64,000 nucleotides of DNA from an uncultured Thermodesulfobacteriota bacterium (GCA_942491525.1 CALOBW010000055.1:136106-200105), one strand, 5' to 3'. Numbered from the stretch's first letter, positions 6,288 through 59,425 are shown. Numbers and translations are program-made. Notes: generated by a model not told the origin, from the sequence alone.

Positions 6288-7298
6288 GTGAATATCTCGG
6301 GAAAAAATGTTTTGGTTACAGGTGCAGATGGCTTCATCGGGTCTCATTTGACAGAAACTCTTGTGCGGCAAGGTTATGATGTTCGTGCGTTTGTGATGTA
6401 TAATTCTTTTAATTCTTGGGGATGGTTGGATCAGGCTGATTCTGAAGTGCAGAAAAATATGGATGTATTTGCTGGTGACATCAGAGATCCCCATGGAGTG
6501 CGTCAGGCCATGCAGGGTTGTGATATTGTAATGCATCTGGCTGCCCTGATTGCTATCCCATATTCATATCACTCTCCTGACACCTATGTGGATACAAATG
6601 TTAAGGGCACATTGAATGTTGTGCAGGCTGCTCGTGATTTGGGCGTCGAAAAAGTGGTACATACATCTACTAGCGAAGTGTATGGCACGGCTAGATTTGT
6701 GCCGATTACAGAGGAACATCCCCTGCAGGGGCAGTCGCCGTACTCGGCATCCAAGATTGGCGCAGATCAGATGGCATTGTCTTTTTATCAGTCATTTGAT
6801 ACGCCTGTGGCAGTGATTCGTCCATTCAATACTTACGGCCCCAGGCAGTCTGCTCGGGCTGTTATTCCTACAATTATTGGGCAGATCGCTAATGGTAAGC
6901 GAAAGATCAAGTTGGGATCGTTGCATCCGACCCGAGACTTTAATTATGTCAAGGATACTGTTAGGGGATTTTTAGCAGTTGCCGAGGCTGATTCTTCTGT
7001 TGGTGAAGTGATTAATATCGGTAGTAACTATGAGATTTCTATCGGTGATACCGTTGAGCTGATATCAGAGGTGATGGGGGTTAATATTGAAATTGAAACT
7101 GATGATCAGCGTCTGCGACCTGAAAAGAGTGAAGTTGAACGTCTCTGGGCTGACAATGCCAAAGCTAAAGAGTTGGTTGGTTGGGCTCCTGAATATGGTG
7201 AGCGTGATGGTTTTAAACGAGGATTAGCTGAAACGGTAGAGTGGTTTACCAATTCGGATAATTTGAAACAGTATAAAACTTCAATTTATAATATTTAA
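6288..7298 (+). CDS. NAD-dependent NDP-sugar 4,6-dehydratase, LegB-like (nonulosonate pathway)
   Basis: VLVTGADGFIGSHL Rossmann motif, YSASK catalytic motif, YNSFNSWGWLD segment typical of the LegB-like dehydratase subgroup. Confidence 0.7.
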   Translation: MNISGKNVLVTGADGFIGSHLTETLVRQGYDVRAFVMYNSFNSWGWLDQADSEVQKNMDVFAGDIRDPHGVRQAMQGCDIVMHLAALIAIPYSYHSPDTYVDTNVKGTLNVVQAARDLGVEKVVHTSTSEVYGTARFVPITEEHPLQGQSPYSASKIGADQMALSFYQSFDTPVAVIRPFNTYGPRQSARAVIPTIIGQIANGKRKIKLGSLHPTRDFNYVKDTVRGFLAVAEADSSVGEVINIGSNYEISIGDTVELISEVMGVNIEIETDDQRLRPEKSEVERLWADNAKAKELVGWAPEYGERDGFKRGLAETVEWFTNSDNLKQYKTSIYNI

Positions 7299-7314
7299 AA
7301 GTAAGTTAATTGGA

Positions 7315-8469
7315 ATGAACGAAAAATTTAGAAAGATAGTCAGCTGTATTCGGGAGCAATATAACTGTCCTGATGAATTTATTCCACTGCATGCGCCAGT
7401 ATTTAATGGGAATGAGAAAAAATATCTGATTGACTGTATTGATTCAACGTTTGTTTCTAGCGTTGGTAAGTTTGTTGATCGGTTTGAGGAGATGGTTGCT
7501 GACTATACCGGTGCTGAATATGCAATTGCCACTGTAAATGGTACCGCTGCATTGCATATAGCATTACTTTTGGTTGGAGTTGAACCGGAAGATGAAGTGC
7601 TAACTCAGGCTCTTACTTTTGTAGCAACTCCCAATGCAGTCAGTTATTGTGGAGCAACTCCTGTTTTCCTTGATAGTGATCGAATGACTTTAGGGTTGAG
7701 TCCGGAAGCTTTACGTACTTTTTTATCTGAAAATGCTGAAAAGCGTGCTGATGAATATACTTATAACCGAAAGTCGGGGAAACGGATCAAGGCTTGTGTT
7801 CCAATGCATGTGTTTGGCCATCCTGTCAGGGTTCTTGAACTGAAATCTATCTGTGATAGTTATAATATTACGCTAGTTGAGGATGCCGCGGAGTCATTAG
7901 GTAGTTTTTATGGTGAGCAACATACAGGAACCTTTGGTAAGTTAGGTGTTCTAAGTTTTAATGGTAATAAGACTCTTACTACCGGCGGTGGTGGGATGAT
8001 TCTTACTAATGATGAAAAGTTGGCCCGGCAGGCAAAACATTTGACCACTACTGCTAAACAGCCTCATGCCTGGGAGTATGTTCATGATCAGGTTGGTTAT
8101 AACTATCGGCTTCCCAATCTGAATGCAGCTTTGGGTTGTGCTCAGATGGAACAGTTGGATACTTTTCTTGAATATAAGCGTCATCTGGCCGGTAATTATT
8201 GGCAATGCTTTGATGTATTGGGTGTGAAGTTTATTTCCGTTCCGGATGGATGTATTTCAAATTATTGGTTGAATGCGATTGTTTTGGAAGATCGAAATGA
8301 ACGCGATAAGTTTCTTGAATACTCTAATGCCAATGGTGTTATGACAAGACCATTGTGGATGCTGGCATCATCTCTTAAGATGTATCATGAGTGTGAAACG
8401 GATGGGCTTGATAATGCAAGGTGGTTTGAGGAGAGAGTTGTTAATATTCCGAGTGGTGTAATGGTATGA
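7315..8469 (+). CDS. DegT-family aminotransferase, LegC/PseC-like
   Basis: DegT fold with LSFNGNKTLTTGGGG PLP-Lys motif. Adjacent to the dehydratase and NeuD-like acetyltransferase. Confidence 0.8.
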   Translation: MNEKFRKIVSCIREQYNCPDEFIPLHAPVFNGNEKKYLIDCIDSTFVSSVGKFVDRFEEMVADYTGAEYAIATVNGTAALHIALLLVGVEPEDEVLTQALTFVATPNAVSYCGATPVFLDSDRMTLGLSPEALRTFLSENAEKRADEYTYNRKSGKRIKACVPMHVFGHPVRVLELKSICDSYNITLVEDAAESLGSFYGEQHTGTFGKLGVLSFNGNKTLTTGGGGMILTNDEKLARQAKHLTTTAKQPHAWEYVHDQVGYNYRLPNLNAALGCAQMEQLDTFLEYKRHLAGNYWQCFDVLGVKFISVPDGCISNYWLNAIVLEDRNERDKFLEYSNANGVMTRPLWMLASSLKMYHECETDGLDNARWFEERVVNIPSGVMV

Positions 8470-9080
8470 AGCCCGAGATTATTCTTATTGGTGGCGGTGG
8501 CCACTGTAAATCTTGCATTGATGTTATTGAGCAGCAAGATAAATTTAAGATATCTGGTATTGTTGATGTGAAGGATAAATTGCACCGAAGATTATTAGGT
8601 TATGAAATAATTGCTACTGATGATGACTTACCTGCACTTGTTAAAGAATATAGAAATTTTCATATTGCTATTGGACAGATCAAAGATCCAGCCCCCAGAA
8701 TTAAGTTGTTTCAAATTTTAAAGAGATTATCTGTTAATATTCCAGAAATTATATCACCCAAGGCTCATGTTTCACCCCATGCCATAGTTGGGGAAGGATC
8801 AATAATAATGCATCATGCGCTTGTTAATGCAGGTGCAAAGATCGGCAATAATTGTATCGTAAATACAAAGACTTTAATTGAGCATGATGCTACTATTGAA
8901 GATTATTGTCATGTTGCTACGGCGGCGGTGATAAATGGCGGATGCAGTATCGGCAAGGGGGCCTTTATAGGCAGTAATGTTGTTTGCCGAGAATCAATAT
9001 CTATCGGAGAGTTTTCTGTTGTTGGATGTGGAGTTAAGTTGGTTGAAAATGTAGATTCATATTCGTTGGTTGTGAAGTAG
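8466..9080 (+). CDS. NeuD/PglD-family hexapeptide-repeat sugar N-acetyltransferase (LegH-like)
   Basis: MKPEIILIGGGGHCKSCIDVI N-terminal NeuD-type domain followed by left-handed beta-helix hexapeptide repeats. Confidence 0.75.
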   Translation: MKPEIILIGGGGHCKSCIDVIEQQDKFKISGIVDVKDKLHRRLLGYEIIATDDDLPALVKEYRNFHIAIGQIKDPAPRIKLFQILKRLSVNIPEIISPKAHVSPHAIVGEGSIIMHHALVNAGAKIGNNCIVNTKTLIEHDATIEDYCHVATAAVINGGCSIGKGAFIGSNVVCRESISIGEFSVVGCGVKLVENVDSYSLVVK

Positions 9081-9116
9081 TTATTTGACTTATCGAATAT
9101 TGATTTTGTTGATTAA

Positions 9117-9992
9117 TTGAAAAATAAAGTAGTTTTTTTTACAGTTGTATATCCTGGCGTCGAGAAGTTTCTTGATGATTTCTTTAACTCTTTATGCAGG
9201 CAAACATTTCAAGAATTTGATGTTCTAGTATTTAATGATGGTGTTCGTGGTCTTTGGGATTACTGCAGGCCGTATAATGAGCTTAAGGTAATAGAAATTA
9301 GTGCAACTGGCACGCCGTCAAAGATAAGAGAGCAGGGCATTTGTTATTTGCTCTCAAATACTGAATATGAGTATATTGTTTTCGGAGACAGTGACGACTG
9401 TTTTCCAGATGAAAGGTTACATGTCGTCTTAGAGTTGCTTAATGAGTATGATATCGTTGTCAATGATTTAGATCTTTTTAATGATGATGATGTCTTAAGT
9501 AGAGGCTATATTTCACAACGTATTGCAAGTGGTACAGAGATTAATGCTGAAATGCTGATGCGTAGTAATATTATGGGATTGTCAAATACCTCGGTTCGTC
9601 GAGAATGTCTAACGCTTGAAGCGTTGCCTGGTAATTTGATAGCTGTTGATTGGTATCTATTTAGTCGCATGTTGCATCAAGGATTTTGCGCTGTTTTTAC
9701 AGATGAAACTAAAACTGACTATAGGCAGTATGAGGATAACACTGTGGGTATTGGAACAATATCCAAGGAAAAATTGTTACGGCTAATTACAGTAAAGAAT
9801 TTGCATTATCAAGAGATGGCGAAAGATTATCCAGAGTACATGAGTCTCGTTGAAACATATTCTCAAATGCGATCACTTGTTGAAGAAAATAAAGATATGT
9901 TAACGTTATTTCTTGATAAAATTGAAAATGCAAAGATTGCCAATCCGCTATGGTGGGAAGAGACTACGGTGCTGGAGGATATAGTTTTATGA
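9117..9992 (+). CDS. GT-A-like (glycosyltransferase family 2-like) protein of unclear role sitting where a hydrolysing 2-epimerase would be expected
   Basis: VVFFTVVYPGVEKF...DVLVFNDG...IVFGDSDD (DxD-like) resembles a GT-A fold. No NeuC/LegG-like motifs. Confidence 0.4.
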   Translation: MKNKVVFFTVVYPGVEKFLDDFFNSLCRQTFQEFDVLVFNDGVRGLWDYCRPYNELKVIEISATGTPSKIREQGICYLLSNTEYEYIVFGDSDDCFPDERLHVVLELLNEYDIVVNDLDLFNDDDVLSRGYISQRIASGTEINAEMLMRSNIMGLSNTSVRRECLTLEALPGNLIAVDWYLFSRMLHQGFCAVFTDETKTDYRQYEDNTVGIGTISKEKLLRLITVKNLHYQEMAKDYPEYMSLVETYSQMRSLVEENKDMLTLFLDKIENAKIANPLWWEETTVLEDIVL

Positions 9993-11047
9993 AGGTTAAT
10001 TTGACCGCAAATAAATATGTATATAATTTTGGTAAACCATATATTATTGCCGAGCTAGCTTCAAATCATAATGGTGATATGGAAATCGCTAAGCAGTTGA
10101 TATTGGCTGCAAAAGAAGCTGGGGCTGATTGTGTTAAGTTTCAGAGTTGGAGTAAGAATACCATTTTTTCTAAGCAGAAATATCTAGATAATTGTTTTAT
10201 AGGCGATGATTATAGAGGGCGTGATGATTATACTCTTGAAGAAATTGTAGAGGAGTTCTCCGTTTCTGAAGAGCAGCTTCTTATAATGAAAAAGTATGCA
10301 GACTCGTTAGAAATAGACTTCACATCTACTCCCTTCTCAAACCGTGAAGCAGATTTTTTAGTAGATGACCTTGATGCCCCCTTTATCAAAGTAGCGTCAA
10401 TGGATCTGAATAATTACCCTTTTCTGGATTATGTTGCTCGTAAAGGTCGGCCTGTGATGATTTCTACAGGATTGAGTCAACTTTACGAAATTGATAAGGC
10501 CATTCGTACCATTGAAAATGCTGGTAATAATGAGATTGTTATTTTGCATTGTGTAGCGTTGTATCCGCCTCAGGATGAAGATATTAATTTGAATAATATT
10601 GTTTCATTACGCAATTTGTATCCATATCCTATTGGTTTTTCTGATCATACATTAGGATATTCTGTGCCATTAGCAGCTACTGCTTTAGGCGCAAGTGTAA
10701 TTGAGAAGCATATTACTTTGGATAAAGAGATGTTTGGCTGGGATCATAAAGTTTCGGCAATGCCAGATGAGATGAAGATTATTGTCAATGAATCATTGCG
10801 GATATCTAAAGCCTTGGGTAGTCATCGTATTAGTTGTGTAGAAGATGCCTCCAGAAGGAATGAGTTTCGGAGAAGTATTGTAGTCACTCGCGATTTAAAG
10901 GTTGGAGATGTGATCAGTCGTGAAGATTGTGACTTTAAAAGACCTGGAACAGGTATTCAGCCAGGGGAAATTGGTTATGTTGTTGGTCGAAAATTGAAGC
11001 GGGATATAGAAAGTGATCAGATTCTAAGTTGGAATGATTTCATATAG
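9989..11047 (+). CDS. neuB: N-acylneuraminate/nonulosonate synthase (NeuB/LegI/PseI family)
   Basis: KPYIIAELASNHNGDMEIAKQLILAAKEAGADCVKFQ is a classical NeuB motif. C-terminal SAF/antifreeze-like domain. Start set to ATG 9989 with GGAGGA SD (ATGA overlap with upstream gene). Confidence 0.9.
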   Translation: MKVNLTANKYVYNFGKPYIIAELASNHNGDMEIAKQLILAAKEAGADCVKFQSWSKNTIFSKQKYLDNCFIGDDYRGRDDYTLEEIVEEFSVSEEQLLIMKKYADSLEIDFTSTPFSNREADFLVDDLDAPFIKVASMDLNNYPFLDYVARKGRPVMISTGLSQLYEIDKAIRTIENAGNNEIVILHCVALYPPQDEDINLNNIVSLRNLYPYPIGFSDHTLGYSVPLAATALGASVIEKHITLDKEMFGWDHKVSAMPDEMKIIVNESLRISKALGSHRISCVEDASRRNEFRRSIVVTRDLKVGDVISREDCDFKRPGTGIQPGEIGYVVGRKLKRDIESDQILSWNDFI

Positions 11048-12102
11048 TGGGGGACGCCTTGGATAATTTAATTGTTAATCCTGATCTGAAAGTGGTGGAT
11101 GCATTGAGGGTTCTTGATCAGGGTGGACAGCGGATTCTGCTGGTATGTGATTCAAATCGTCGATTGGAAGGTGTTCTTACTGATGGTGATTTCCGTAGAC
11201 ACTTATTATCAAACAAATCATTAGAGATCTCAATATTTGATATAATGAATCGTGATTTTATTTCTCTTGGGATTAATGAAAGATCTAAGGCCCACGATAT
11301 TCTGGAGACGAGCTGTTTGGATCATATACCGATTCTTGATGAATCAGGTTGTGTTGTCGAACTTGTAACAGTTGCTGGTTTCTTTAAAAAAAATAAGAAT
11401 GAATTCAAAAATTCTGTTGTTATTATGGCTGGGGGTAAAGGGACACGGCTCTCACCGTTAACAAAAATTATTCCTAAACCATTGGTTCCTGTTGGCGATA
11501 AAACCATGATTGAGATGATCATGGATGAATTTAAAAGAAGTGGATTTAAAGATTTTAAGGTAATAGTTAATTATAAAAAAGAGCTTATTAAATCTTATTT
11601 CCAAGAGAATGGGCTTGTAGAGGAAGTGGATTTCATTGATGAAGAGAAGTTTTTAGGAACAGCCGGTGGTTTACGTCTTTTATCTGGTGTGATTGAGGAT
11701 ACATTTATTCTATCTAATTGTGATGTGGCAGCGCAGATAAACTATCTGAATTTGATGGATTGGCACAAGGAGCATGCTGCAGACTTGACCATTTTAGGTG
11801 TTAGAAAGAGTTTTGATGTTCCCTATGGGGTAGTCAATATTGATAGTGATCATTATGTGACCCATGTAACTGAGAAGCCCAATTATGATTTTACCATTAT
11901 GAGCGGGATATATGTCTTGGAACCATCGATTTTTGAGTATATTCCAGATAATGAATTCTTTGGCATGGATGATCTGATAAGTTCGATGATTTCTGGAGGT
12001 AAGCGGGTTTCGTGTTATCCTATCGAAGACGGTTGGTTTGATGTTGGTGAATTTGATGAGTATAAAAAACTTTTGAAGCATTTCGGGGTATTGAGTGCAT
12101 AA
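11047..12102 (+). CDS. CBS-domain nucleotidyltransferase (PtmE-like sugar-1-phosphate nucleotidyltransferase)
   Basis: Two N-terminal CBS repeats followed by MAGGKGTRLSPLTKIIPKPL nucleotidyltransferase motif. Same architecture as Campylobacter PtmE. Confidence 0.8.
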   Translation: MGDALDNLIVNPDLKVVDALRVLDQGGQRILLVCDSNRRLEGVLTDGDFRRHLLSNKSLEISIFDIMNRDFISLGINERSKAHDILETSCLDHIPILDESGCVVELVTVAGFFKKNKNEFKNSVVIMAGGKGTRLSPLTKIIPKPLVPVGDKTMIEMIMDEFKRSGFKDFKVIVNYKKELIKSYFQENGLVEEVDFIDEEKFLGTAGGLRLLSGVIEDTFILSNCDVAAQINYLNLMDWHKEHAADLTILGVRKSFDVPYGVVNIDSDHYVTHVTEKPNYDFTIMSGIYVLEPSIFEYIPDNEFFGMDDLISSMISGGKRVSCYPIEDGWFDVGEFDEYKKLLKHFGVLSA

Positions 12103-12889
12103 ACGCTATCGTGATTTGTTCTATTTGGGTGGCAGAAAAGTTGTCGTTACAGGTGGTTGTGGTAGGTTGGGTTCTGAAATTGCAAAATGTTTTGGAGAGT
12201 TTGGTGCCCATGTTGTAGTTGCGGATATTGATGAAAAGAGTGCCAATTGTCTTGTGGATGAGATGGTAATGGCTAATCAATGTGCCGATGTGTTTTTGTT
12301 TGATCAATCAGATGTGGATTCGATTCCTGCACAAATTTCACGCTTAATAGATACGTTTGGACCAATTGATGTATGGGTCAATAATGCTTACCCGAGAACA
12401 GAAGATTGGGGAAATAAACTTGAAGCTGTTTCTGTAGAAAGTTGGCAGCAAAATGTTGATATGCATTTAAATGGATATTGTATTGCTTCAAATGAGATTG
12501 CAAAGAATATGGCAACTAGAGGCGGAGGATCGATTATCAATATTGCATCAATACAGGCCTTAGTTGCACCCGATTTTGCCGTCTATGAGGGTACTGAGAT
12601 GACGTCTCCACCCGCATACATGGCGATTAAAGGGGGTATAATGGCGTATTCAAAATATTTAGCCAGCTATTTTGGTAAAGATGGTGTTCGGGTTAACGTC
12701 GTGTGTCCAGGAGGAATTGCCAATAATCAGCCTGATTTTTTTGTAGAACGCTATAGCAGTAGAACGATGCTGGGACGTATGGCCGAAGCTCAGGACATTG
12801 CGCCGGCAGTTATGTTTCTTGCGTCAGAAGCTGCTTCATATATTACAGGAGCCGTGTTTGCCGTAGATGGTGGGCTCACCGCTTTATAA
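12095..12889 (+). CDS. short-chain dehydrogenase/reductase (SDR), PtmA-like
   Basis: VVVTGGCGRLGSEIA Rossmann motif, NNAY, YMAIKGG (YxxxK). 264 aa. Confidence 0.8.
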   Translation: MHKRYRDLFYLGGRKVVVTGGCGRLGSEIAKCFGEFGAHVVVADIDEKSANCLVDEMVMANQCADVFLFDQSDVDSIPAQISRLIDTFGPIDVWVNNAYPRTEDWGNKLEAVSVESWQQNVDMHLNGYCIASNEIAKNMATRGGGSIINIASIQALVAPDFAVYEGTEMTSPPAYMAIKGGIMAYSKYLASYFGKDGVRVNVVCPGGIANNQPDFFVERYSSRTMLGRMAEAQDIAPAVMFLASEAASYITGAVFAVDGGLTAL

Positions 12890-12903
12890 TAGGGAGATTT
12901 TAA

Positions 12904-14100
12904 ATGAATAATACTTGGCGGTTTAGTGGAAATGAATTGAATTATGTTAGAGAAGTGATTGATTCAGGTTTTGGATCAGGTACTTCAGGTGGCATGAATA
13001 ATAGGTTTGAAAATGCATTTGCTGAAAAAGTGGGAGCAAAATATGCGGTCACTTTTAATTCCGGGACATCGACTTTGCATGCTGCATTGCACGCGTTGGA
13101 TGTAAATGCAGGGGATGAAGTAATAATTCCACCACTGACAGTTATTAGCAATGTTGCAGTTATTCTTGCGCAAAATGCCATTCCAGTATTTGCTGATATA
13201 GATCCGAATACATTTAATATAGATCCGGACGATATTAAGAGAAAGATTACAGACAAGACTAAAGCAATCATGCCTGTATCTCTTTATGGGCTTAGCTGTG
13301 ATTTGGATCCCATCATGGAGATTGCTCGTGAGCGTAATATTGGTGTGATTAATGATGCTGCCGAGGCTCATGGTGCAACCTATAAAGGTGTACCTATCGC
13401 TAAGCTTGCTGATATTACCAGTTACAGCACTGAAAATTCAAAGCATTTGGCTACTGGTGATGGTGGAATTGTTGTTACTGACAATGAAGAGTATGCCATT
13501 GCGATGAGAAAATTTAATAGCCTTGGGTATGCTGCAATGACTTCGGGTGATGGTCGAATCAGGGTAAATAAAAAAATCTTTCAAGATCCTCAATATAAGA
13601 GGCATGATTCCCTTGCGCTTAATTATCGGATGCCAGAAGTGGCCGCAGCGTTGGGGCTAGCGCAGACGGAACGGTTGGATCATTTTGTTGATCTGCGGGT
13701 TAAGATTGCTGCGATGTACAGTGATGTAATAAAAGATTGTGATTTCTTAGTGCCTCAGTATACACCGGCAAATTGTAGAAACACGTATTGGACATTTGTA
13801 GTTAAGTTTGAACATAAAGATGTGTCCTGGTACGAATTCCGCGATAAATGCATTGAATTTGGTGGAGATGGCATTTATGCAGCCTGGGCACTTAGTTATG
13901 AGGAAACCCTCATATCATCAGGCGTCTATAAAAAGAGGGCTCCCTATTACTTTGATGAGCTGGAGTATCCTAAAGGGATTTGTCCTGTGGCTGAGGAAAT
14001 ACAGCCGAAGCTAATGCAGTTTGTTACTAATTATGGCAGTACTGAAGAGGCTCAGCCGATGGCGGATGCACTTAGGAAGACTATAGAGTATTACAGCTAG
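12904..14100 (+). CDS. DegT/DnrJ-family PLP-dependent enzyme (additional aminotransferase-like protein)
   Basis: DegT-like N-terminus (FENAFAEKVGAKYAVTFNSGTSTLHAALHAL), DIDPNTFNIDP, and Lys motif TSYSTENSKHLATGDGG. Confidence 0.7.
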   Translation: MNNTWRFSGNELNYVREVIDSGFGSGTSGGMNNRFENAFAEKVGAKYAVTFNSGTSTLHAALHALDVNAGDEVIIPPLTVISNVAVILAQNAIPVFADIDPNTFNIDPDDIKRKITDKTKAIMPVSLYGLSCDLDPIMEIARERNIGVINDAAEAHGATYKGVPIAKLADITSYSTENSKHLATGDGGIVVTDNEEYAIAMRKFNSLGYAAMTSGDGRIRVNKKIFQDPQYKRHDSLALNYRMPEVAAALGLAQTERLDHFVDLRVKIAAMYSDVIKDCDFLVPQYTPANCRNTYWTFVVKFEHKDVSWYEFRDKCIEFGGDGIYAAWALSYEETLISSGVYKKRAPYYFDELEYPKGICPVAEEIQPKLMQFVTNYGSTEEAQPMADALRKTIEYYS

Positions 14101-14108
14101 AGGACGAA

Positions 14109-14858
14109 GTGGAACGTAATATGAATCAATATGGTGTGATTGTGCAAGCTAGGATGAGTTCATCCAGGCTTCCTGGTAAAGTGTTAATGGATGTAGATGG
14201 GAAACCAATGCTTAGGCGTCAGCTGGAGCGTTTGCGTAACGGTTTGAAATGTGAAACGCTTGTGGTCGCAACTTCCGATGATTCATCAGACGATCCCATT
14301 CAAGATCTTTGTGATGAAATTGGTATAGGATGTTTTCGCGGTCCGTTAAATGATGTGATGAGTAGATTTATACTGTGTGCGAAGCATTACGGCATAGACT
14401 ATCTTATAAGAGTCGGTGGCGATGATCCTCTGGTTGATTGGGATTGTTGCAATACGTTAATTGAAACTCATCAGGAGCATCAGTATGATTTTATGTATGC
14501 AAGTAATCGTGATGGGTGGCCATATGGATGTGCCGCTGAGCTGATTTCTAGAAGGTCTTTGGAGGAGATTAGATCAAAGACCGAAGAATCGATTTATTTG
14601 GAACACACTATTCCATATTTTTTTGATCATGGAAATGATTTTGATATGCTCAGGGTTGAGGCTCCTAATGAGCTGCACCGTCCAAATTATTATTTTACCG
14701 TAGATTTTCCTGAAGATTTTGAGTTGGTTAAGCTGCTTTTTAAAGAACTCAATGTGAAGGGAGAGTGTTTTTCCTTAAAGGAGATGATATCTTATATTGA
14801 TCAACATCCTGAAGTGTTAAAGCTTAATTCTGAGTTGCATGTTGGCTTTGAACGATAA
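14109..14858 (+). CDS. cytidylyltransferase of the SpsF/PseF/NeuA (CMP-nonulosonate synthetase) family
   Basis: GVIVQARMSSSRLPGKVLMDVDGKPM N-terminal motif typical of SpsF-like CMP-sugar synthetases. Confidence 0.75.
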   Translation: MERNMNQYGVIVQARMSSSRLPGKVLMDVDGKPMLRRQLERLRNGLKCETLVVATSDDSSDDPIQDLCDEIGIGCFRGPLNDVMSRFILCAKHYGIDYLIRVGGDDPLVDWDCCNTLIETHQEHQYDFMYASNRDGWPYGCAAELISRRSLEEIRSKTEESIYLEHTIPYFFDHGNDFDMLRVEAPNELHRPNYYFTVDFPEDFELVKLLFKELNVKGECFSLKEMISYIDQHPEVLKLNSELHVGFER

Positions 14859-14883: not shown

Positions 14884-15573
14884 ATGAAAAAAGTCGCTAT
14901 TCTGCAGTCAAATTATATTCCTTGGAAGGGATATTTGGATTTAATTAATATGGTGGATGAGTTCATCCTTTATGATGATTGTCAGTATACGAAGAATGAT
15001 TGGCGTAATAGAAATAAAATATTTACGAGAGATGGACTTCAATGGCTAACGATACCTGTGAGGTATTCATTCCCTCAATTAATAAAAGATACGGTGGTTA
15101 GTTATGATGGTTGGAATAAAAAACACTGGAAAACGATAGAGCAAAATTATTCTAAGGCTCGATTCTTTCATGACTATAAGACCATCTTTGAGGAGTTATA
15201 CTTAGGAAGTGAAGATAATTATTTAAGTCAGATTAATTATAAATTTTTGAGTCAGATTTGTGATATTTTGGGGATTAATACTAAGATTACATGGTCAATG
15301 GATTATAACTTAATTGAGGGTAAAACTGAAAGGTTAGTGGATTTGTGTCGTCAATCATGTGCAGCTGAATATATATCAGGACCTGCAGCTAGAAATTATA
15401 TAGATGATGAGTTGTTCTGTCAGGAAGGAATTAAACTTACATACATAGACTATACTGGTTATAGAGAATATACCCAAATGCATCTGCCTTTTGAGCATGG
15501 AGTATCTATACTGGATTTAATATTTAACGAAGGGGCAGATGCTCCAAAATTTATGAAGAGTTTTGTTGAATGA
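14884..15573 (+). CDS. wbqC: WbqC-family protein (function unknown, polysaccharide-cluster associated)
   Basis: MKKVAILQSNYIPWKGYLDLINMVDEFILYDDCQYTKNDWRNRNKI matches the WbqC-like family signature. Confidence 0.7.
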   Translation: MKKVAILQSNYIPWKGYLDLINMVDEFILYDDCQYTKNDWRNRNKIFTRDGLQWLTIPVRYSFPQLIKDTVVSYDGWNKKHWKTIEQNYSKARFFHDYKTIFEELYLGSEDNYLSQINYKFLSQICDILGINTKITWSMDYNLIEGKTERLVDLCRQSCAAEYISGPAARNYIDDELFCQEGIKLTYIDYTGYREYTQMHLPFEHGVSILDLIFNEGADAPKFMKSFVE

Positions 15574-16511
15574 AACTGTCAATAGTCACAACAATGTATT
15601 GTTCTGAAGCTTATATAGTTGAGTTTTATGAACGAATTTCGTCTGCTGCGGAAATGATTACAGAAGATTATGAGCTTATCTTTGTTAATGATGGATCGCC
15701 GGATAAATCGCTCGAGATTGCAATTTCATTACATAAAAAGGATTTGAAAGTCCGTGTTATTGATCTTTCACGGAATTTTGGACACCATAAAGCGATCATG
15801 ACTGGTTTGGCGCATGCGTCTGGTGATCAAATTTTTTTAATAGATTGTGATTTGGAAGAGGATCCAAGCTGGCTTAATTTGTTCATGCAGGAATTGAACG
15901 ATTCACCGGGAGTTGATGTTGTATATGGAGTACAGCGACAAAGGAAAGGTGAGTATTTTGAGAAGATCAGCGGGGCTTTATTTTTTGATTTTTTCAATCT
16001 GTTATCAGATGTAAAGGTACCGAAAAATCAGACAGTCGCGCGCTTAATGACTAAAAGATATGTGAATAGTTTACTGCAATTCTCTGAAAGGGAACTTGTC
16101 TTTGTTGGATTGTGTGAGCTGGCAGGATATTCTCAAAAGCGAGTTTATGTAAACAAAGGTCATAAGAATTGTTCCACTTATAACCTTTCACGTAAAATTG
16201 ATATGGCTATTAATTTTGTTGTCTCATTTAGTAGCAGGCCTCTGGTGTTAATTTTTTATTTGGGGCTTTTCGTTACAATGATATCAGCTGTTTGCGCCGT
16301 ATATATTGTTTGTTCAAAAGTATTATTTGGTATACCCGTTGATGGATGGGCATCTATTGTTACATCAATTTGGTTTATTGGTGGACTGCTAATGTTTAGT
16401 GTGGGGATAGTTGGAATATATTTATCTAAGATTTTTATTGAGGTTAAAAATCGACCATTTACAGTCATTCGTAATATCTACAGCTCTAGTAATGATGAGG
16501 AACTGTTATGA
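15570..16511 (+). CDS. polyprenyl-phosphate glycosyltransferase, GT2 (ArnC/GtrB-like) with C-terminal TM helices
   Basis: LSIVTTMYCSEAYI...IFVNDGSPD...DCDLEED GT2 catalytic domain plus two C-terminal TM helices, as in ArnC/GtrB/DPM synthases. Confidence 0.8.
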   Translation: MKLSIVTTMYCSEAYIVEFYERISSAAEMITEDYELIFVNDGSPDKSLEIAISLHKKDLKVRVIDLSRNFGHHKAIMTGLAHASGDQIFLIDCDLEEDPSWLNLFMQELNDSPGVDVVYGVQRQRKGEYFEKISGALFFDFFNLLSDVKVPKNQTVARLMTKRYVNSLLQFSERELVFVGLCELAGYSQKRVYVNKGHKNCSTYNLSRKIDMAINFVVSFSSRPLVLIFYLGLFVTMISAVCAVYIVCSKVLFGIPVDGWASIVTSIWFIGGLLMFSVGIVGIYLSKIFIEVKNRPFTVIRNIYSSSNDEELL

Positions 16512-17167
16512 AGAAGCTTGTTATATTTGGGGCTGCGGACCAAGCAGAAGTTGCGAGTTTTCTTTTTAAGCATGACTCTGAGTATGAACCGGTAGCGTTT
16601 ACAGTGAATGCTGATTATATTCAATCTAATACATTCAATGGGCTGCCAGTTGTTCCTTTTGAGAATGTTGAGCAGAATTATCCTCCATCAGAGTATGCAA
16701 TGTTTGTTGCATTGGGATATACTCAAATGAATAAAATTAGAGCTGACAAATGTAGTGAGGCAAAGGGAAAAGGCTATATTTTGGCTAGCTACATAAGTAG
16801 CAGAGCTGTAATATGGCCTGATTTCTCCTGTGGTGAAAATTGCTTGATTTTAGAGCACAACAACATTCAACCATATGTTTCTATTGGCAATAATGTGACT
16901 TTGTGGAGTGGAAACCATCTTGGACATCATTCTTCTATAGGTGATAATACGTTTTTAACATCTCATGTAGTTGTGTCGGGGCGTGTAACTGTCGGTAAAA
17001 ATTGTTTCTTGGGAGTCAATTCGACGGTGCGTGATAAGTTAGTTGTTGCAGACAATACTTTAGTTGCTGCAGGTAGTTTGCTTGTTAAAGATACACAATC
17101 ATATGGTGTATACATGGGGAGCCCTGCTAAGATGCTAGAAAAAAGTAGTAAAGATATAATTATATAG
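16508..17167 (+). CDS. NeuD/PglD-family hexapeptide-repeat sugar N-acyltransferase
   Basis: MKKLVIFGAADQAEVASFLF N-terminal domain plus hexapeptide repeats (IGNNVTLWSGNHLGHHSSIGDNTFL). Confidence 0.75.
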   Translation: MKKLVIFGAADQAEVASFLFKHDSEYEPVAFTVNADYIQSNTFNGLPVVPFENVEQNYPPSEYAMFVALGYTQMNKIRADKCSEAKGKGYILASYISSRAVIWPDFSCGENCLILEHNNIQPYVSIGNNVTLWSGNHLGHHSSIGDNTFLTSHVVVSGRVTVGKNCFLGVNSTVRDKLVVADNTLVAAGSLLVKDTQSYGVYMGSPAKMLEKSSKDIII

Positions 17168-17175
17168 GAATTGAA

Positions 17176-18102
17176 ATGAAGTGGGAAAAGATCGGTCATA
17201 TTTTTTGTGCTACTAATCAAAATGATTGGATGTATTCACATGCAATGATTCCTATTGCAGAGAATATTGAAGGTGATCTATTTCGAATATATTTTTCGCC
17301 GCGTGATAAATATAATAGAGGACATGGAGCATTTATAGAAATTGACATCAATGAACCTGAGAAAATTTTAAGAGTATCTGAGACTCCCATACTATCTCCA
17401 GGAGCGTTGGGGTGTTTTGATGATAGTGGTGCCTTGCCTAATTCAATTATCTGGGTTGGTGGTGAAAAATATCTTTACTATACGGGGATAAATTTAGGTG
17501 TAACTGTAAAAATTAGGAATTCAATTGGAATTGCGAAATGGGATGAGGAATTAGAGGTTTTTGAGAAATTATTTGAAGGCCCCATAATTGATAGAACCAG
17601 AAATCAACCCCATTTTGTGGCTACACCGGAAGTTCATTATCATAAAGGAATATACAAAGCCTGGTTTACTTCATGTGTTAGATGGAAGCAGGAGGGAGAT
17701 GATGTACGCCATTATTATAACCTTGAGTATGCTGAATCTAATAACGGAATTGATTGGGAACGAAATGGGACTATTGCTATAGATTTTGCGGATGATTATG
17801 AATATGCCCTCGGCGTTCCTCGTGTAATTGAAGATTCCGATTGCTATCGGATGTGGTTTTGTTCTAGGGCAACGAAATTTGTGGACACGTATAGAATACG
17901 ATATGCTGAATCTTTTGATGGTTATAATTGGCTTAGAAAAGATAATGAGGTAGGCATCGATGTGTCTGAATCTGGATGGGATAGTGAGATGATTTGTTAT
18001 CCTTTTGTTTTTGATCACAATGGGAAGCGATATATGCTTTATAATGGCAATGGCTATGGTAGCACAGGGTTTGGTTTAGCTATATTGGTTGATGATGAGT
18101 AA
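17176..18102 (+). CDS. predicted beta-propeller glycoside-hydrolase-like protein (GH43/GH130-like fold), function uncertain
   Basis: 308 aa soluble protein. Repeated hydrophobic/aromatic blade-like segments. Domain call is by pattern only. Confidence 0.35.
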   Translation: MKWEKIGHIFCATNQNDWMYSHAMIPIAENIEGDLFRIYFSPRDKYNRGHGAFIEIDINEPEKILRVSETPILSPGALGCFDDSGALPNSIIWVGGEKYLYYTGINLGVTVKIRNSIGIAKWDEELEVFEKLFEGPIIDRTRNQPHFVATPEVHYHKGIYKAWFTSCVRWKQEGDDVRHYYNLEYAESNNGIDWERNGTIAIDFADDYEYALGVPRVIEDSDCYRMWFCSRATKFVDTYRIRYAESFDGYNWLRKDNEVGIDVSESGWDSEMICYPFVFDHNGKRYMLYNGNGYGSTGFGLAILVDDE

Positions 18103-18108: not shown

Positions 18109-18501
18109 GTGAGTATGACTGCTGAATTTATAAATAAATTAGTTGCACATATATATATAGCAGGAACAATAGTTTTTACTCTTTATGGTCAGCTGATTAT
18201 TAAATGGAAAATGTCACAAGTTGGGAATTTGCCAGATCACTTTATCGAGAAAACAACCTTTTTGTTTATGCAATTTTTAAATCCCTGGATAATCTCTGGC
18301 TTTATATCGGCTTTTATTGCATCTCTTTGCTGGATGGCAGCAATGACAAAGTTTGAGCTTAGTTATGCCTATCCATATATGGGATTGTCATTTATTCTAA
18401 TTATGATTTCTAGTGCATTACTATTTCATGAACCAATTTCAGTATATAAGCTTGCCGGGCTTATATTAGTTGTGAGTGGAATTGTAGTTGGGGCGCAATG
18501 A
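18109..18501 (+). CDS. small 4-TM membrane protein, ArnE/ArnF- or GtrA-like flippase subunit candidate
   Basis: 130 aa, four predicted TM helices, SMR/DMT-like size. Sits next to the GT2 polyprenyl-P glycosyltransferase. Confidence 0.5.
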   Translation: MSMTAEFINKLVAHIYIAGTIVFTLYGQLIIKWKMSQVGNLPDHFIEKTTFLFMQFLNPWIISGFISAFIASLCWMAAMTKFELSYAYPYMGLSFILIMISSALLFHEPISVYKLAGLILVVSGIVVGAQ

Positions 18502-19376
18502 ACTATTGCTGTAACTGTCAGAGTTACTTGGTCAATGATGTTGCAATGTGTTCAGTATGTGGATATCAGCCAAAAGTTGTGAATGATATTCCTGTTTATG
18601 CCTCAGAACTTGCTGACGATAATGATGGATTCAGTTCAGATGACCATGTTTTCTTAACAGAAGTTGAAAATGGGCATTTTTGGTTTGAAAATAGAAACCT
18701 TGTCTTAAGGTGGATATTGCAGAAGTTTTTTCCGCAAATGGGATCATTTTGCGAAGTAGGTTGTGGTACCGGTTTTGTCTTAAGGGAGATTGCTAAATCT
18801 TTTCCTGACGTGAAATTGTTTGCAAGTGACATTTATGTGAATGCTCTTTCTTTTGTTCAGAAGAAGGTTCCTAATGCAAAATTGTTTCAGTCTGATCTTA
18901 TGCAATTTCCGTATATTGAGAAATTTGATGTTGTAGGAGCATTTGATGTTATCGAGCATATTGATGATGATGTCGGTGCACTTGAGAGTATCTATCGGTC
19001 GTTAGTAGTTGGCGGTGGTGTCGTTATTACGATTCCGCAACACAAGTGGCTGTGGTCTGTTCAGGATATCAGTAGTTGTCATAAGCGACGGTATTATCGC
19101 AAAGATATCATTGATAAGATGGAGTCGGTAGGGTTTCGTGTTCTTAAGGTAACCTCATTCGTAAGCTTATTGCTACCACTTATGATTGTTTCGCGCCTTT
19201 TATTTCTAAAAAGAGTTGATTCAAATTCTAGAAATGAATTCGAATTGTCTACTATTGTTAATAAATTATTGGGGGCAATCTGTCGGATTGAAAGAGTAAT
19301 CATTAAATTAGGGCTAGATTTTAGCGTGGGGGGATCACTTTTGGTTGTCGCGGTGAAGGATGAAAATACCGTTTAA
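18498..19376 (+). CDS. class I SAM-dependent methyltransferase with N-terminal Cys4 zinc-ribbon (Trm112-like)
   Basis: N-terminus CCNCQSYL...CSVCGYQPKVVNDIPVY, then MTase motif I EVGCGTGFVL and post-I acidic DIYVN. Confidence 0.75.
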   Translation: MNYCCNCQSYLVNDVAMCSVCGYQPKVVNDIPVYASELADDNDGFSSDDHVFLTEVENGHFWFENRNLVLRWILQKFFPQMGSFCEVGCGTGFVLREIAKSFPDVKLFASDIYVNALSFVQKKVPNAKLFQSDLMQFPYIEKFDVVGAFDVIEHIDDDVGALESIYRSLVVGGGVVITIPQHKWLWSVQDISSCHKRRYYRKDIIDKMESVGFRVLKVTSFVSLLLPLMIVSRLLFLKRVDSNSRNEFELSTIVNKLLGAICRIERVIIKLGLDFSVGGSLLVVAVKDENTV

Positions 19377-20496: not shown

Positions 20497-20508
20497 GAAA
20501 TATTATTT

Positions 20509-23260: not shown

Positions 23261-23328
23261 TGAAATTTGAAATATCTACCATTTAGTAATCAAATTGTTT
23301 TAGTGTCAGATGTAAGGATATCTTAGTA

Positions 23329-25873: not shown

Positions 25874-25918
25874 ATGTAGGTTTCGATTGTGCGTTTGAGT
25901 AAATGAATTGGAGATCAA

Positions 25919-28928: not shown

Positions 28929-28934
28929 TGTAGT

Positions 28935-30815: not shown

Positions 30816-30838
30816 ATTCTTATTCGGGAGATTCTGTC

Positions 30839-48677: not shown

Positions 48678-48680
48678 GTC

Positions 48681-51969: not shown

Positions 51970-52032
51970 ATTCGGCCGACTGGACAGGCGCCTGATCATA
52001 TTGTATAGAGCCATCACTAAGGGGTAAGGGAT

Positions 52033-53454: not shown

Positions 53455-53463
53455 GGAGGCGGT

Positions 53464-54933: not shown

Positions 54934-54940
54934 GGTCTGA

Positions 54941-55978: not shown

Positions 55979-56013
55979 TTGCTCTGATGCGTTGGATCGG
56001 TTAATAAGCCGAT

Positions 56014-58375: not shown

Positions 58376-58377
58376 GC

Positions 58378-59409: not shown

Positions 59410-59425
59410 CGAAAAGGGTCTGGCG

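What the first reader, a model, noticed from the sequence alone, without database searches (positions are those of the whole stretch)
6288..14858. Nonulosonic-acid module of the GDP-linked legionaminic type that lacks a hydrolysing 2-epimerase
The block contains a LegB-like 4,6-dehydratase, a DegT aminotransferase, a NeuD-like N-acetyltransferase, a NeuB-family synthase, a CBS-domain nucleotidyltransferase, an SDR and an SpsF/PseF-like cytidylyltransferase. This is the gene set of the Campylobacter-type legionaminic acid route, in which a PtmE-like CBS nucleotidyltransferase makes GDP-GlcN. However, no NeuC/LegG-type hydrolysing 2-epimerase and no PseG-type hydrolase is present. The position between the acetyltransferase and the synthase is occupied by a 291-aa GT-A-like ORF (9117..9992). 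An extra DegT-family enzyme (12904..14100) sits between the SDR and the cytidylyltransferase. The only Epimerase_2 gene (36783) carries non-hydrolysing WecB-type motifs. Either the pathway yields a different nonulosonate isomer through unrecognised enzymes, or the GT-A-like protein replaces the missing step.
Basis: partly seen in the sequence, partly recalled or inferred. Interest (0 to 1): 0.7.

Follow-up and report, generated by a model that had tools for sequence, protein, structure and literature searches.

The report
GT-A enzyme replaces NeuC in nonulosonate pathway
A bacterial gene cluster for a sialic-acid-like nine-carbon sugar lacks the usual enzyme that frees the sugar from its nucleotide carrier; in its place is an undescribed, widespread glycosyltransferase-fold protein that always travels with its own branch of the sugar-building synthase, so a new enzyme, and possibly a new sugar isomer, is likely.

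Summary
Window 6288-14858 encodes LegB, LegC, a NeuD-type acetyltransferase, a 291-aa GT-A protein, a NeuB-family synthase, a PtmE/LegX-like CBS-nucleotidyltransferase, an SDR, a second DegT enzyme and an SpsF-like cytidylyltransferase. The genes are tightly packed. The 64-kb window has no NeuC or PseG; its only Epimerase_2 gene is a WecB.

The GT-A protein is not an incidental glycosyltransferase. It belongs to a sharply delimited family of about 800 clusters at 50% identity. In 68 of 68 informative genomic loci from at least six phyla, its gene sits directly upstream of NeuB. It usually lies downstream of NeuD and is fused to NeuD in Vibrionaceae, Shewanella and Psychromonas. None of the 72 loci has a NeuC within 10 kb. 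Unbiased clustering finds no other conserved candidate for the missing step.

The upstream enzymes are orthologous to those of NeuC-containing E. coli O61/O161 legionaminic clusters. The partner synthases instead form their own clade (bootstrap 93/100).

Best reading: a GT-A-fold NDP-sugar hydrolase, analogous to PseG, that together with a dedicated synthase replaces NeuC plus LegI. Whether C-2 is epimerised is open, so the product may be legionaminic acid or a new 5-epimer. I found no description in the literature or in curated family libraries.

The parts
6288..7298 (+). LegB-type NAD-dependent NDP-GlcNAc 4,6-dehydratase (step 1 on the nucleotide sugar)
   Evidence: TIGR04180 554 bits, above the 475 cut-off. 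The same type is present in 18 of 56 related loci; 27 of 56 instead use a PglF-type dehydratase.
7315..8469 (+). LegC-family PLP aminotransferase (4-amination)
   Evidence: TIGR04181 551 bits, above the 420 cut-off. 53% identical to LegC of the NeuC-containing E. coli O61/O161 clusters.
8466..9080 (+). NeuD/PglD-type N-acetyltransferase (4-N-acetylation)
   Evidence: TIGR03570 182 bits, above the 161 cut-off; PglD_N + hexapeptide repeats. Homologues are fused to the GT-A domain in other taxa.
9117..9992 (+). 291-aa GT-A-fold protein of a distinct family; proposed NDP-sugar hydrolase replacing NeuC/LegG
   Evidence: PF00535 40.6 bits, N-terminal only. AF2 pLDDT 90.9. Foldseek top hits are inverting GT2 enzymes at 12-20% identity. 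Invariant D41, D91/D93/D94 and D178-W179, plus a C-terminal NPLWWE motif. NeuB lies directly downstream in 68/68 loci. 823 clusters at E<=1e-30.
9989..11047 (+). NeuB-family nonulosonate synthase of the GT-A-linked clade (start revised from 9950)
   Evidence: PF03102 259 bits + SAF, but below the NeuB and PseI curated cut-offs. ATGA overlap with the GT-A stop and a 352-aa gene call. 46-70% identical to other GT-A-linked synthases, 31-42% to NeuC-linked synthases and to PseI; clade bootstrap 93/100.
11047..12102 (+). CBS + nucleotidyltransferase (PtmE/LegX-like), presumed maker of the NDP-GlcN(Ac) precursor
   Evidence: PF00571 + PF00483. Present in 55 of 59 related loci. 32% identical to the counterpart in E. 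coli O61/O161. LegX/PtmE is required for Leg synthesis (bioRxiv 10.1101/2022.03.25.485807).
12095..12889 (+). Short-chain dehydrogenase (PtmA/ElaC-like); tailoring, role inferred
   Evidence: adh_short_C2 145 bits; PtmA model 157 < 350. 33% identical over the full length to the E. coli O61 ElaC-like SDR. Present in 7 related loci.
12904..14100 (+). Second DegT-family aminotransferase (perosamine-synthetase-like); accessory, role unresolved
   Evidence: PF01041 288 bits, below the PseC and LegC cut-offs. Best PDB match is perosamine synthetase 3bn1, E=8e-56, with the Lys aligned. Homologues follow NeuB in L016, L030 and L041.
14109..14858 (+). SpsF-like CTP_transf_3 cytidylyltransferase, presumed CMP-nonulosonate synthetase
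   Evidence: PF02348 110 bits. This type occurs in 17 related loci and a NeuA/PseF type in 44 others; together they cover 61 of 73.

Best explanation
The block is an operon for a CMP-activated 5,7-diacetamido-3,5,7,9-tetradeoxy-nonulosonic acid. It follows the legionaminic-type route as far as the nucleotide-linked 2,4-diacetamido-2,4,6-trideoxyhexose.

Proposed steps:
1. The CBS-nucleotidyltransferase supplies NDP-GlcN(Ac).
2. LegB dehydrates it.
3. LegC aminates C-4.
4. NeuD acetylates the new amine.
5. The 291-aa GT-A-fold protein cleaves the sugar from the nucleotide. It would bind the NDP-sugar through its DxD/metal site and use water as acceptor, activated by the conserved Asp178. NeuC/LegG does this step in canonical legionaminic clusters and PseG does it in pseudaminic clusters.
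6. The dedicated NeuB-clade synthase, which is translationally coupled to the GT-A gene, condenses the free hexose with PEP.
7. The SpsF-like cytidylyltransferase makes the CMP-sugar.
8. The SDR and the second DegT are tailoring enzymes.

Shown here: gene identities, GT-A fold and motifs, invariant linkage to NeuB, fusions with NeuD, absence of NeuC/PseG from the window and from 72 related loci, and a separate synthase clade.

Inferred: hydrolase activity, the nucleotide used (GDP or UDP), and the stereochemistry of the product.
For: 1. The gene set and its tight packing are confirmed.
2. The window has no NeuC or PseG, and its only Epimerase_2 gene is a WecB.
3. The GT-A family is discrete. 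All 69 word-index hits have E<=7e-28 with nothing weaker. 823 representative clusters score E<=1e-30. Mean column identity across phyla is 51%. Ten of the 20 invariant residues lie in the 'acceptor' half, as expected for a fixed small substrate rather than variable glycan acceptors.
4. Catalytic equipment of an inverting GT-A is retained, and the model is confident.
5. Synteny in 72 genomic loci: NeuB directly downstream in 68/68; NeuD upstream or fused in 51/63; CBS-nucleotidyltransferase in 55/59; a cytidylyltransferase in 55/59.
6. NeuD-GT-A fusions occur in Vibrio, Photobacterium, Shewanella and Psychromonas.
7. Every Epimerase_2 ORF in those loci is WecB-like, none is NeuC-like, and a PseG-like ORF occurs only in a separate second cluster in L072.
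8. Unbiased clustering of all flanking ORFs gives a seven-family core identical to the Leg core, with GT-A in place of NeuC. The next most frequent family is in at most 13 loci.
9. PGAP-annotated E. coli O61/O161-type loci show the canonical order dehydratase-LegC-neuC-neuB (in the O161 locus a FemAB-family gene follows LegC and neuB precedes neuC), with the acetyltransferase (where annotated) and the nucleotidyltransferase downstream.
10. Precedents: PseG is a glycosyltransferase-fold NDP-sugar hydrolase. B. subtilis makes a Leg-type sugar with SpsG and no NeuC (PMC7439481).
Against: - No biochemical data exist for any family member.
- GT2 enzymes normally transfer sugars to acceptors, and water as acceptor is an assumption.
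- A NeuC, PseG or AGE-type epimerase elsewhere in the genomes was not excluded, because only +-10 kb was seen.
- NeuD is not adjacent in 12 of 63 loci, and LegC was not found upstream in 16 of 56 loci (four of these have LegB directly upstream of GT-A). The substrate may therefore vary.
- If the product is true legionaminic acid, a simple inverting hydrolase is insufficient. A 2-epimerisation has to be explained.
Confidence: 0.65

Rival explanations
1. The GT-A protein is both hydrolase and 2-epimerase, or it works with an unlinked epimerase. The pathway then yields genuine legionaminic acid, and GT-A plus its synthase are simply a non-orthologous replacement of LegG plus LegI with the same chemistry.
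For: - LegB and LegC score above the curated cut-offs.
- The upstream enzymes are orthologous to those of E. coli O61/O161 Leg-type clusters: LegC up to 74% identical, PglF-type dehydratase median 78%.
- The PtmE/LegX nucleotidyltransferase, proposed as a marker of Leg pathways, is present in 55/59 loci.
- B. subtilis is reported to make Leg without NeuC.
Against: - No known GT-A enzyme epimerises C-2.
- The partner synthases are a separate clade: at most 42% identical to NeuC-linked synthases, which are 49-53% identical to each other, and none of 67 is closer to the E. coli LegI sequences than to the window's synthase. That pattern is what a different hexose substrate would predict.
- No conserved extra epimerase lies in the flanks.
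Confidence: 0.3
2. The GT-A protein is an ordinary glycosyltransferase. It would add a sugar, perhaps diNAcBac itself, to a lipid-linked or protein acceptor. The hydrolysing epimerase for the nonulosonate route would be encoded elsewhere.
For: - Pfam GT2 match and full catalytic motifs.
- The closest solved structures are true transferases such as TarS, TarP, AvpGT and SpsA.
- The window is a large glycan-assembly locus with many other glycosyltransferases.
Against: - Glycosyltransferases in surface-glycan loci are usually variable in position and sequence. This one is fixed next to NeuB in 68/68 loci across phyla, and it has a highly conserved acceptor-side half.
- It is fused to the pathway acetyltransferase.
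- NeuC is absent from all 72 neighbourhoods, although canonical clusters keep neuC adjacent to neuB.
- Its partner synthase co-diverges with it.
Confidence: 0.15
3. The GT-A protein is the transferase that installs the finished nonulosonate, acting like a sialyltransferase and using the CMP-sugar.
For: Some sialyltransferase families have GT-A-variant folds (textbook knowledge). The gene is inside the nonulosonate operon.
Against: - The invariant DxD motif and GT2-type architecture point to diphosphate-nucleotide donors. Sialyltransferases generally lack DxD (discussed in PMC7439481).
- Fusion to the NDP-sugar acetyltransferase, and a position before the synthase, argue for an early pathway step.
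- This reading would leave the NDP-cleavage step unfilled in all 72 loci.
Confidence: 0.04

Closest known systems
Legionaminic acid clusters with NeuC/LegG (C. jejuni Cj1319-Cj1332; E. coli O61 and O161 O-antigen loci; A. baumannii lgaA-G)
   Same: Same upstream chemistry and gene families: 4,6-dehydratase, LegC aminotransferase (53-74% identical), NeuD-type acetyltransferase, NeuB-family synthase, CBS-nucleotidyltransferase and cytidylyltransferase. The operon layout is also the same.
   Different: No Epimerase_2 hydrolysing 2-epimerase; a GT-A-fold protein sits between the acetyltransferase and the synthase instead. The synthase belongs to a separate clade (at most 42% identity, bootstrap 93). 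The acetyltransferase is only 28% identical to the E. coli one.
PseG, the UDP-sugar hydrolase of the pseudaminic acid pathway
   Same: Proposed role is the same: release of a 2,4-diacetamido-2,4,6-trideoxyhexose from its nucleotide, without 2-epimerisation, by a protein with a glycosyltransferase fold, immediately before the NeuB-family synthase.
   Different: PseG has a GT-B fold, is metal-independent and acts on the L-altro sugar. The protein here has a GT-A fold with a DxD motif, shows no sequence similarity to PseG, and sits in a LegB/LegC (D-gluco) context.
Bacillus subtilis Sps route (SpsM, C, D, G, E, F) to a legionaminic-type sugar
   Same: A Leg-type pathway that lacks NeuC and relies on a non-Epimerase_2 protein (SpsG) before the synthase. 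It also uses an SpsF-type cytidylyltransferase (PMC7439481).
   Different: I recall SpsG as PseG-like with a GT-B fold; the paper text read here does not state this. SpsA, the GT-A protein of that operon, is not needed for Leg and is only a distant structural relative (14% identity).
Inverting GT2 glycosyltransferases (SpsA, TarS, TarP, AvpGT, CgT/GalT1 5hea)
   Same: GT-A fold, a DxD metal/nucleotide site and an Asp at the catalytic-base position.
   Different: Only 12-20% identity. The family has its own conserved C-terminal helical region ending in NPLWWE, strictly conserved acceptor-side residues, and a fixed biosynthetic context.

Membership tests
Legionaminic-acid biosynthesis cluster (C. 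jejuni type) | LegB-type NDP-GlcNAc 4,6-dehydratase | tested here: met
   TIGR04180 554 bits, cut-off 475.
Legionaminic-acid biosynthesis cluster (C. jejuni type) | LegC 4-aminotransferase | tested here: met
   TIGR04181 551 bits, cut-off 420. 53% identical to E. coli O61/O161 LegC.
Legionaminic-acid biosynthesis cluster (C. jejuni type) | N-acetyltransferase of the LegH/NeuD/PglD type | tested here: met
   TIGR03570 182 bits, cut-off 161.
Legionaminic-acid biosynthesis cluster (C. jejuni type) | Hydrolysing 2-epimerase LegG/NeuC (Epimerase_2) | tested here: not met
   The only Epimerase_2 gene (36783-37928) is a WecB: TIGR00236 300 > 210, NeuC model 74 < 236. phmmer (one NeuC reference) and tblastn (three NeuC references) found nothing else in 64 kb. 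The rest of the genome was not seen.
Legionaminic-acid biosynthesis cluster (C. jejuni type) | LegI-type nonulosonate synthase | tested here: inconclusive
   NeuB + SAF domains are present. The protein is below the curated NeuB and PseI cut-offs and lies in a clade separate from NeuC-linked Leg synthases.
Legionaminic-acid biosynthesis cluster (C. jejuni type) | PtmE/LegX CBS-nucleotidyltransferase | tested here: met
   CBS + NTP_transferase architecture. 32% identical to the E. coli O61/O161 counterparts. Nucleotide specificity was not tested.
Legionaminic-acid biosynthesis cluster (C. jejuni type) | CMP-nonulosonate synthetase | tested here: met
   PF02348 110 bits. It is SpsF-like rather than NeuA/LegF-like: PseF model 19 bits.
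Legionaminic-acid biosynthesis cluster (C. jejuni type) | Product has the D-glycero-D-galacto configuration | not testable with these tools
   Needs NMR of the sugar.
GT2 / GT-A glycosyltransferases | GT-A fold | tested here: met
   AF2 pLDDT 90.9. Foldseek probability 1.0 to TarS, TarP, SpsA and AvpGT.
GT2 / GT-A glycosyltransferases | DxD metal/nucleotide motif and catalytic-base Asp | tested here: met
   Invariant D91, D93, D94 and D178 in 27 sequences, aligned with the DSDD and ED motifs of 5hea.
GT2 / GT-A glycosyltransferases | Pfam PF00535 above the gathering score | tested here: met
   40.6 bits against 23.3, residues 16-130 only. No specific NCBIfam model; the best is TuaG at 33 bits against a 400 cut-off.
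GT2 / GT-A glycosyltransferases | Transfers a glycosyl group to a non-water acceptor | not testable with these tools
   Requires an enzyme assay. The genomic context argues for water as acceptor.
PseG-type NDP-sugar hydrolase | GT-B fold / homology to PseG | tested here: not met
   No similarity to the PseG reference, and the fold is GT-A.
PseG-type NDP-sugar hydrolase | Hydrolyses an NDP-2,4-diacetamido-2,4,6-trideoxyhexose ahead of the synthase | not testable with these tools
   Inferred from position, fusions and the absence of alternatives.

The most novel reading that the evidence does not exclude
The GT-A enzyme is a plain hydrolase with no C-2 inversion. Its dedicated synthase clade would then condense gluco-configured 2,4-diacetamido-2,4,6-trideoxy-D-glucose (diNAcBac) with PEP. 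The product would be a nonulosonic acid stereoisomer not yet described in nature: the 5-epimer of legionaminic acid, formally D-glycero-D-gulo (or -ido). This is my own stereochemical derivation. Such a sugar would be made by hundreds of lineages, including Campylobacter concisus and C. showae, Aliarcobacter, Vibrio, SAR11 and many Bacteroidota, and would currently be mis-annotated as legionaminic acid.
Probability: 0.3. Interest if true: 0.85.

Novelty: new variant of a known kind. Interest (0 to 1): 0.66.

Why it matters
Nonulosonic acids decorate flagella, capsules, LPS and S-layers. They shape motility, phage susceptibility and immune recognition. Genome-based prediction of which sugar a bacterium makes relies on finding LegG/NeuC or PseG.

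This work identifies a large family, about 800 clusters at 50% identity across several phyla, that appears to fill that step with a third, unrelated glycosyltransferase fold. It always comes with its own synthase clade.

If this is confirmed, three things follow:
- Pathway annotation rules would change. These clusters are currently labelled 'glycosyltransferase family 2' plus 'N-acetylneuraminate synthase'.
- A new enzyme would be available for chemoenzymatic synthesis of bacterial sialic-acid analogues.
- There would be a concrete, testable route to a possibly new nonulosonate isomer in human-associated Campylobacterota and in abundant marine bacteria.

Tried and rejected
- tblastn of the GT-A protein against 72,556 plasmids: no match. 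The synthase found only relatives at 37% identity or less there, so plasmids gave NeuC and PseG reference sequences but no close context.
- blastn of a Citrobacter-MAG GT-A + NeuB segment against 5,426 complete E. coli genomes: only a 77-bp NeuB motif matched. No complete E. coli genome carries the module, so the planned genome-wide NeuC-absence test was not possible.
- The Foldseek AFDB50 library was unavailable.
- Literature searches (8 queries) and reading of eight papers or preprints (two further ids seen only in search listings). These covered Halorubrum Leg, ElaABC, the A. baumannii K-locus update, B. subtilis sps, LegX, SugarBase, Vibrionaceae nab clusters, NulO synthase phylogeny, 8-epi-Pse and C. 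concisus. None mentions a GT-A or GT2 protein in this role.
- ElaA/B/C (8-epimerisation) as an explanation for the extra genes: rejected for the GT-A. ElaA is Gfo/Idh/MocA, ElaB a CTP-transferase and ElaC an SDR. Only the window's SDR resembles ElaC (33% identity).
- 8-epi-pseudaminic acid via a D-galacto hexose: considered. The known route is EpaA/EpaB conversion of Pse, and LegC orthology argues for the gluco 4-amine.
- The Epimerase_2 ORFs found in six related loci: rejected as NeuC candidates. They score 114-524 bits to WecB against 23-55 bits to NeuC, and at least one (L009) follows FnlA/FnlB-like genes.
- The second DegT as the missing step: rejected. It is perosamine-synthetase-like with the catalytic Lys and occurs in only about 7 of 72 loci.

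Full report
**1. What is in the window**

The first 48 kb of the window have 37-45% G+C, and almost all genes there are on the + strand. This region is one very large surface-glycan locus. Beyond 48 kb the G+C content rises to 50-59%, and a second polysaccharide cluster follows.

Curated models identify them as follows.

| Coordinates | Assignment | Score |
|---|---|---|
| 6288-7298 | LegB | TIGR04180 554 bits, cut-off 475 |
| 7315-8469 | LegC | TIGR04181 551 bits, cut-off 420 |
| 8466-9080 | NeuD/PglB/VioB acetyltransferase | TIGR03570 182 bits, cut-off 161 |
| 9117-9992 | weak GT2, N-terminal only | PF00535 40.6 bits |
| 9950-11047 | NeuB + SAF synthase | below the equivalog cut-offs of NeuB (314 < 400) and PseI (278 < 340) |
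| 11047-12102 | CBS + NTP_transferase | domain architecture (PF00571 38.8 + PF00483 128.4 bits) |
| 12095-12889 | SDR | PtmA model 157 < 350 |
| 12904-14100 | DegT aminotransferase | below the PseC and LegC cut-offs |
| 14109-14858 | CTP_transf_3, SpsF-like | PF02348 110 bits |

The genes overlap or are at most 36 bp apart. The GT-A stop codon overlaps an in-frame ATG of the synthase at 9989 (ATGA). Independent gene calls on an identical metagenomic contig use that start and give a 352-aa product.

**2. The missing enzyme**

- Every + strand ORF of at least 150 aa up to 48 kb was scanned against Pfam, apart from two (39088-40080 and 41159-43084) that were scanned against NCBIfam only.
- Only 36783-37928 is an Epimerase_2 protein. 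It is a non-hydrolysing WecB: TIGR00236 300 bits against a 210 cut-off, and the NeuC model only 74 bits against 236.
- I took annotated NeuC, PseG and WecB reference proteins from public records: a Rhodobacteraceae plasmid, a Mesorhizobium pse cluster, and E. coli O61/O161 loci.
- I searched all ORFs and the six-frame translation of the window with them. Nothing but the WecB gene responded.

The rest of the genome is not available.

**3. The GT-A protein belongs to a discrete, pathway-bound family**

*The family is sharply delimited.*
- A search of 5.8 billion proteins returned 69 hits, all with E<=7e-28 and none weaker.
- Several hits are 480-aa fusions of a NeuD-type acetyltransferase with this domain, for example in Vibrio hepatarius and Vibrio sp. 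S9_S30.
- A profile of 27 members finds 823 representative clusters (50% identity) at E<=1e-30 among 1.84 billion proteins, including further fusions.

*Sequence and structure.*
- The alignment has 51% mean column identity across phyla.
- Invariant residues include D41, D91/D93/D94 (FGDSDD), N116, N151, G154, N157, D178-W179, Y202 and K227, plus a C-terminal NPLWWE motif.
- Half of the invariant residues lie in what would be the acceptor side of a glycosyltransferase.
- The AlphaFold model is confident (pLDDT 90.9).
- Its closest solved structures are inverting GT-A/GT2 enzymes (AvpGT, CgT, TarS, TarP, SpsA) at 12-20% identity.
- No NCBIfam model describes the family.

**4. Synteny**

One scan of 185,579 species genomes gave 72 loci. 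They come from:
- Campylobacterota: Sulfurimonas, Sulfuricurvum, Arcobacter, Campylobacter concisus, C. showae.
- Gammaproteobacteria: Vibrio, Photobacterium, Shewanella, Pseudoalteromonas, Bowmanella, Psychromonas.
- Bacteroidota.
- SAR11.
- Desulfobacterota.
- A Bacteriovoracaceae MAG.
- Ca. Jettenia.

I called ORFs in each locus and classified them with the window's proteins.

| Feature near the GT-A gene | Loci with the feature / loci with enough sequence |
|---|---|
| NeuB directly downstream | 68 / 68 |
| NeuD directly upstream or fused | 51 / 63 (5 fusions) |
| LegC upstream | 40 / 56 |
| PglF-type dehydratase | 27 / 56 |
| LegB-type dehydratase | 18 / 56 |
| CBS-nucleotidyltransferase downstream | 55 / 59 |
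| Cytidylyltransferase downstream | 55 / 59 |

- Pfam-annotated contexts from an independent resource agree.
- All seven Epimerase_2 ORFs in these sequences (six loci and the window) score 114-524 bits to WecB and only 23-55 bits to NeuC. They lie away from the module.
- A PseG-like ORF occurs once, in a separate second cluster.
- An unbiased single-linkage clustering of all 1,218 flanking ORFs gives a core of seven families: GT-A 72 loci, NeuB 68, CBS-NTP 61, aminotransferase 58, dehydratase 58, NeuD 53, and cytidylyltransferase 44 + 17.
- The next most frequent family is present in at most 13 loci. No other conserved candidate for the nucleotide-removal step exists.

**5. Comparison with canonical clusters**

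PGAP-annotated E. coli loci with O61- and O161-family flippases, and two further strains, show the classical order. It runs UDP-GlcNAc 4,6-dehydratase, LegC, neuC, neuB, acetyltransferase, nucleotidyltransferase, and then either NeuA or an ElaABC-like trio. The O161 locus varies: a FemAB-family gene follows LegC, neuB precedes neuC, and no acetyltransferase is annotated.

| Enzyme of the GT-A-linked modules | Identity to E. coli O61/O161 counterparts |
|---|---|
| PglF-type dehydratase | median 74-78% |
| LegC | 46-74% (the window's is 53%); 11 of 57 are closer to E. coli than to the window |
| Synthase | 32-42% |
| Window acetyltransferase | 28% |

- The GT-A-linked synthases are 31-42% identical to the E. 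coli Leg synthases, to a NeuC-linked Rhodobacteraceae NeuB and to PseI. They are 46-70% identical to the window's synthase. None of 67 is closer to the E. coli LegI sequences than to the window's synthase.
- The NeuC-linked references are 49-53% identical to one another.
- In a neighbour-joining tree of 78 synthases, the 68 GT-A-linked sequences form one split with 93/100 bootstrap support. The NeuC-linked references form another with 95/100.

Thus NeuD-GT-A-NeuB behaves as a unit that replaces neuC-neuB-acetyltransferase downstream of a shared dehydratase and aminotransferase.

**6. Mechanism proposed**

*Established knowledge of the families.* LegB, LegC and the acetyltransferase produce NDP-2,4-diacetamido-2,4,6-trideoxy-D-glucose. 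LegG/NeuC removes the nucleotide with inversion at C-2. PseG removes it without epimerisation. The NeuB-family enzyme then condenses the free hexose with PEP.

*Inference for this cluster.* The GT-A protein binds the NDP-sugar through its DxD/metal site and uses water as the acceptor, activated by Asp178. This releases the free hexose for the translationally coupled synthase. Recruitment of a glycosyltransferase fold for this step has a precedent in PseG (my recollection is that PseG has a GT-B fold). B. subtilis also makes a Leg-type sugar with SpsG and no NeuC (PMC7439481).

*What cannot be decided by computation.* It is unknown whether C-2 is epimerised. The PtmE/LegX marker (bioRxiv 10.1101/2022.03.25.485807) and the LegB/LegC orthology point to legionaminic acid. 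The separate synthase clade and the chemistry expected of an inverting GT-A point to retention of the gluco configuration. By my own derivation, that would give the 5-epimer of legionaminic acid (D-glycero-D-gulo or -ido), which is not among the natural isomers I know of. The nucleotide used (GDP or UDP) is also untested, since modules with either dehydratase type exist.

**7.

- The SDR is 33% identical to the ElaC-like reductase of E. coli O61. ElaC acts on CMP-8-keto-legionaminic acid (PMC13656337).
- The second DegT is perosamine-synthetase-like with its catalytic lysine.
- DegT homologues follow NeuB in a minority of loci. In L041 one occurs together with a Gfo/Idh/MocA oxidoreductase and a GNAT.
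- These look like tailoring enzymes, possibly oxidising, transaminating and acylating the nonulosonate. They are not substitutes for NeuC. This is speculative.

**8. Novelty and limits**

Eight literature searches and the papers read found no description of a GT-A/GT2 enzyme in this role. Public annotations call these proteins 'glycosyltransferase family 2/A'.

The library does not hold all subscription journals, so prior description cannot be fully excluded. All functional statements are inferences, and no member has been assayed. A NeuC or another epimerase elsewhere in the genomes remains possible.

I rate this a new variant of a known kind of pathway, with moderate-to-high interest. It makes a specific enzyme function and a possible new sugar directly testable.

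Noticed in passing
window 1-48000 versus 48000-64000: There is a sharp composition change: 37-45% G+C with very strong positive GC skew (0.16-0.34), then 50-59% G+C with almost none. The nonulosonate module lies in a low-GC glycan island next to a second, high-GC polysaccharide cluster (WbaP 52033-53454, GT2s 49515 and 51064, DltB-like MBOAT 53464-54933).
   Followed up: partly
window 18498-31828: At least five SAM-methyltransferase genes (18498, 20509, 25919, 26904, 30839) lie here, together with a Wzx (24593), a Wzy (27717) and an AsnB-like amidotransferase (28935). A second Wzx is at 44802, and Wzm/Wzt is on the minus strand at 524-2667. This suggests a heavily methylated glycan and more than one export route.
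   Followed up: no
window 12095-14100; L041 10106-14489; L030 11901-13187; L016 7104-8390: A perosamine-synthetase-like DegT recurs just after the synthase in a minority of GT-A loci. In L041 it comes with a Gfo/Idh/MocA oxidoreductase and a GNAT; in the window it comes with an ElaC-like SDR. One possibility is oxidise-transaminate-acylate tailoring that adds a third nitrogen to the nonulosonate.
   Followed up: partly
L041 7476-9025; L003 3024-3950; L002 13433-14985: A formyltransferase (9 loci) and a PIG-L deacetylase (5 loci) are inserted next to, or even between, the GT-A gene and NeuB. This implies N-formyl or free-amine variants of the sugar, as reported for Ca. Kuenenia CMP-nonulosonates in the SugarBase preprint.
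   Followed up: partly
L043, L057, L071, L074 (Bacteroidota): In these loci a LegB-type dehydratase lies directly upstream of the GT-A gene, and no LegC or NeuD was detected in the flank. The GT-A/synthase pair may also process a 6-deoxy-HexNAc without the 4-amino group.
   Followed up: no
L045 11902-13705 and similar Bacteroidota loci (L014, L043, L048, L058, L067, L070, L072, L074): The synthase is followed by an SpsF-like cytidylyltransferase and a second, divergent NeuB-family paralogue (PF03102 90 bits), then the CBS-nucleotidyltransferase. The function of the second NeuB paralogue is unknown.
   Followed up: partly
window 14884-17167: A WbqC-family protein (PF08889, 259 bits), an ArnC/PgfS-like polyprenyl-phosphate GT2 and a second NeuD-type acetyltransferase directly follow the module. 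They may form a separate lipid-linked amino-sugar branch together with the second DegT.
   Followed up: no
window 21314-23260, 23329-24612, 46268-47506, 48681-49514: Four sizeable + strand ORFs (277-648 aa) have no Pfam match. A further ORF at 17176-18102 has only a sub-threshold GH130-like hit.
   Followed up: no
window 36783-37928 with 35133-36782 and 37925-39091: The WecB gene is flanked by a heparinase II/III-like protein and a GT4-family glycosyltransferase. This looks like a ManNAc(A)-type module unrelated to the nonulosonate route.
   Followed up: partly
L030 8202-9995: The LegC ORF is 598 aa long and ends where the GT-A gene begins. It may be a LegC-NeuD fusion. This would be another sign of tight coupling among the pathway enzymes.
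   Followed up: no
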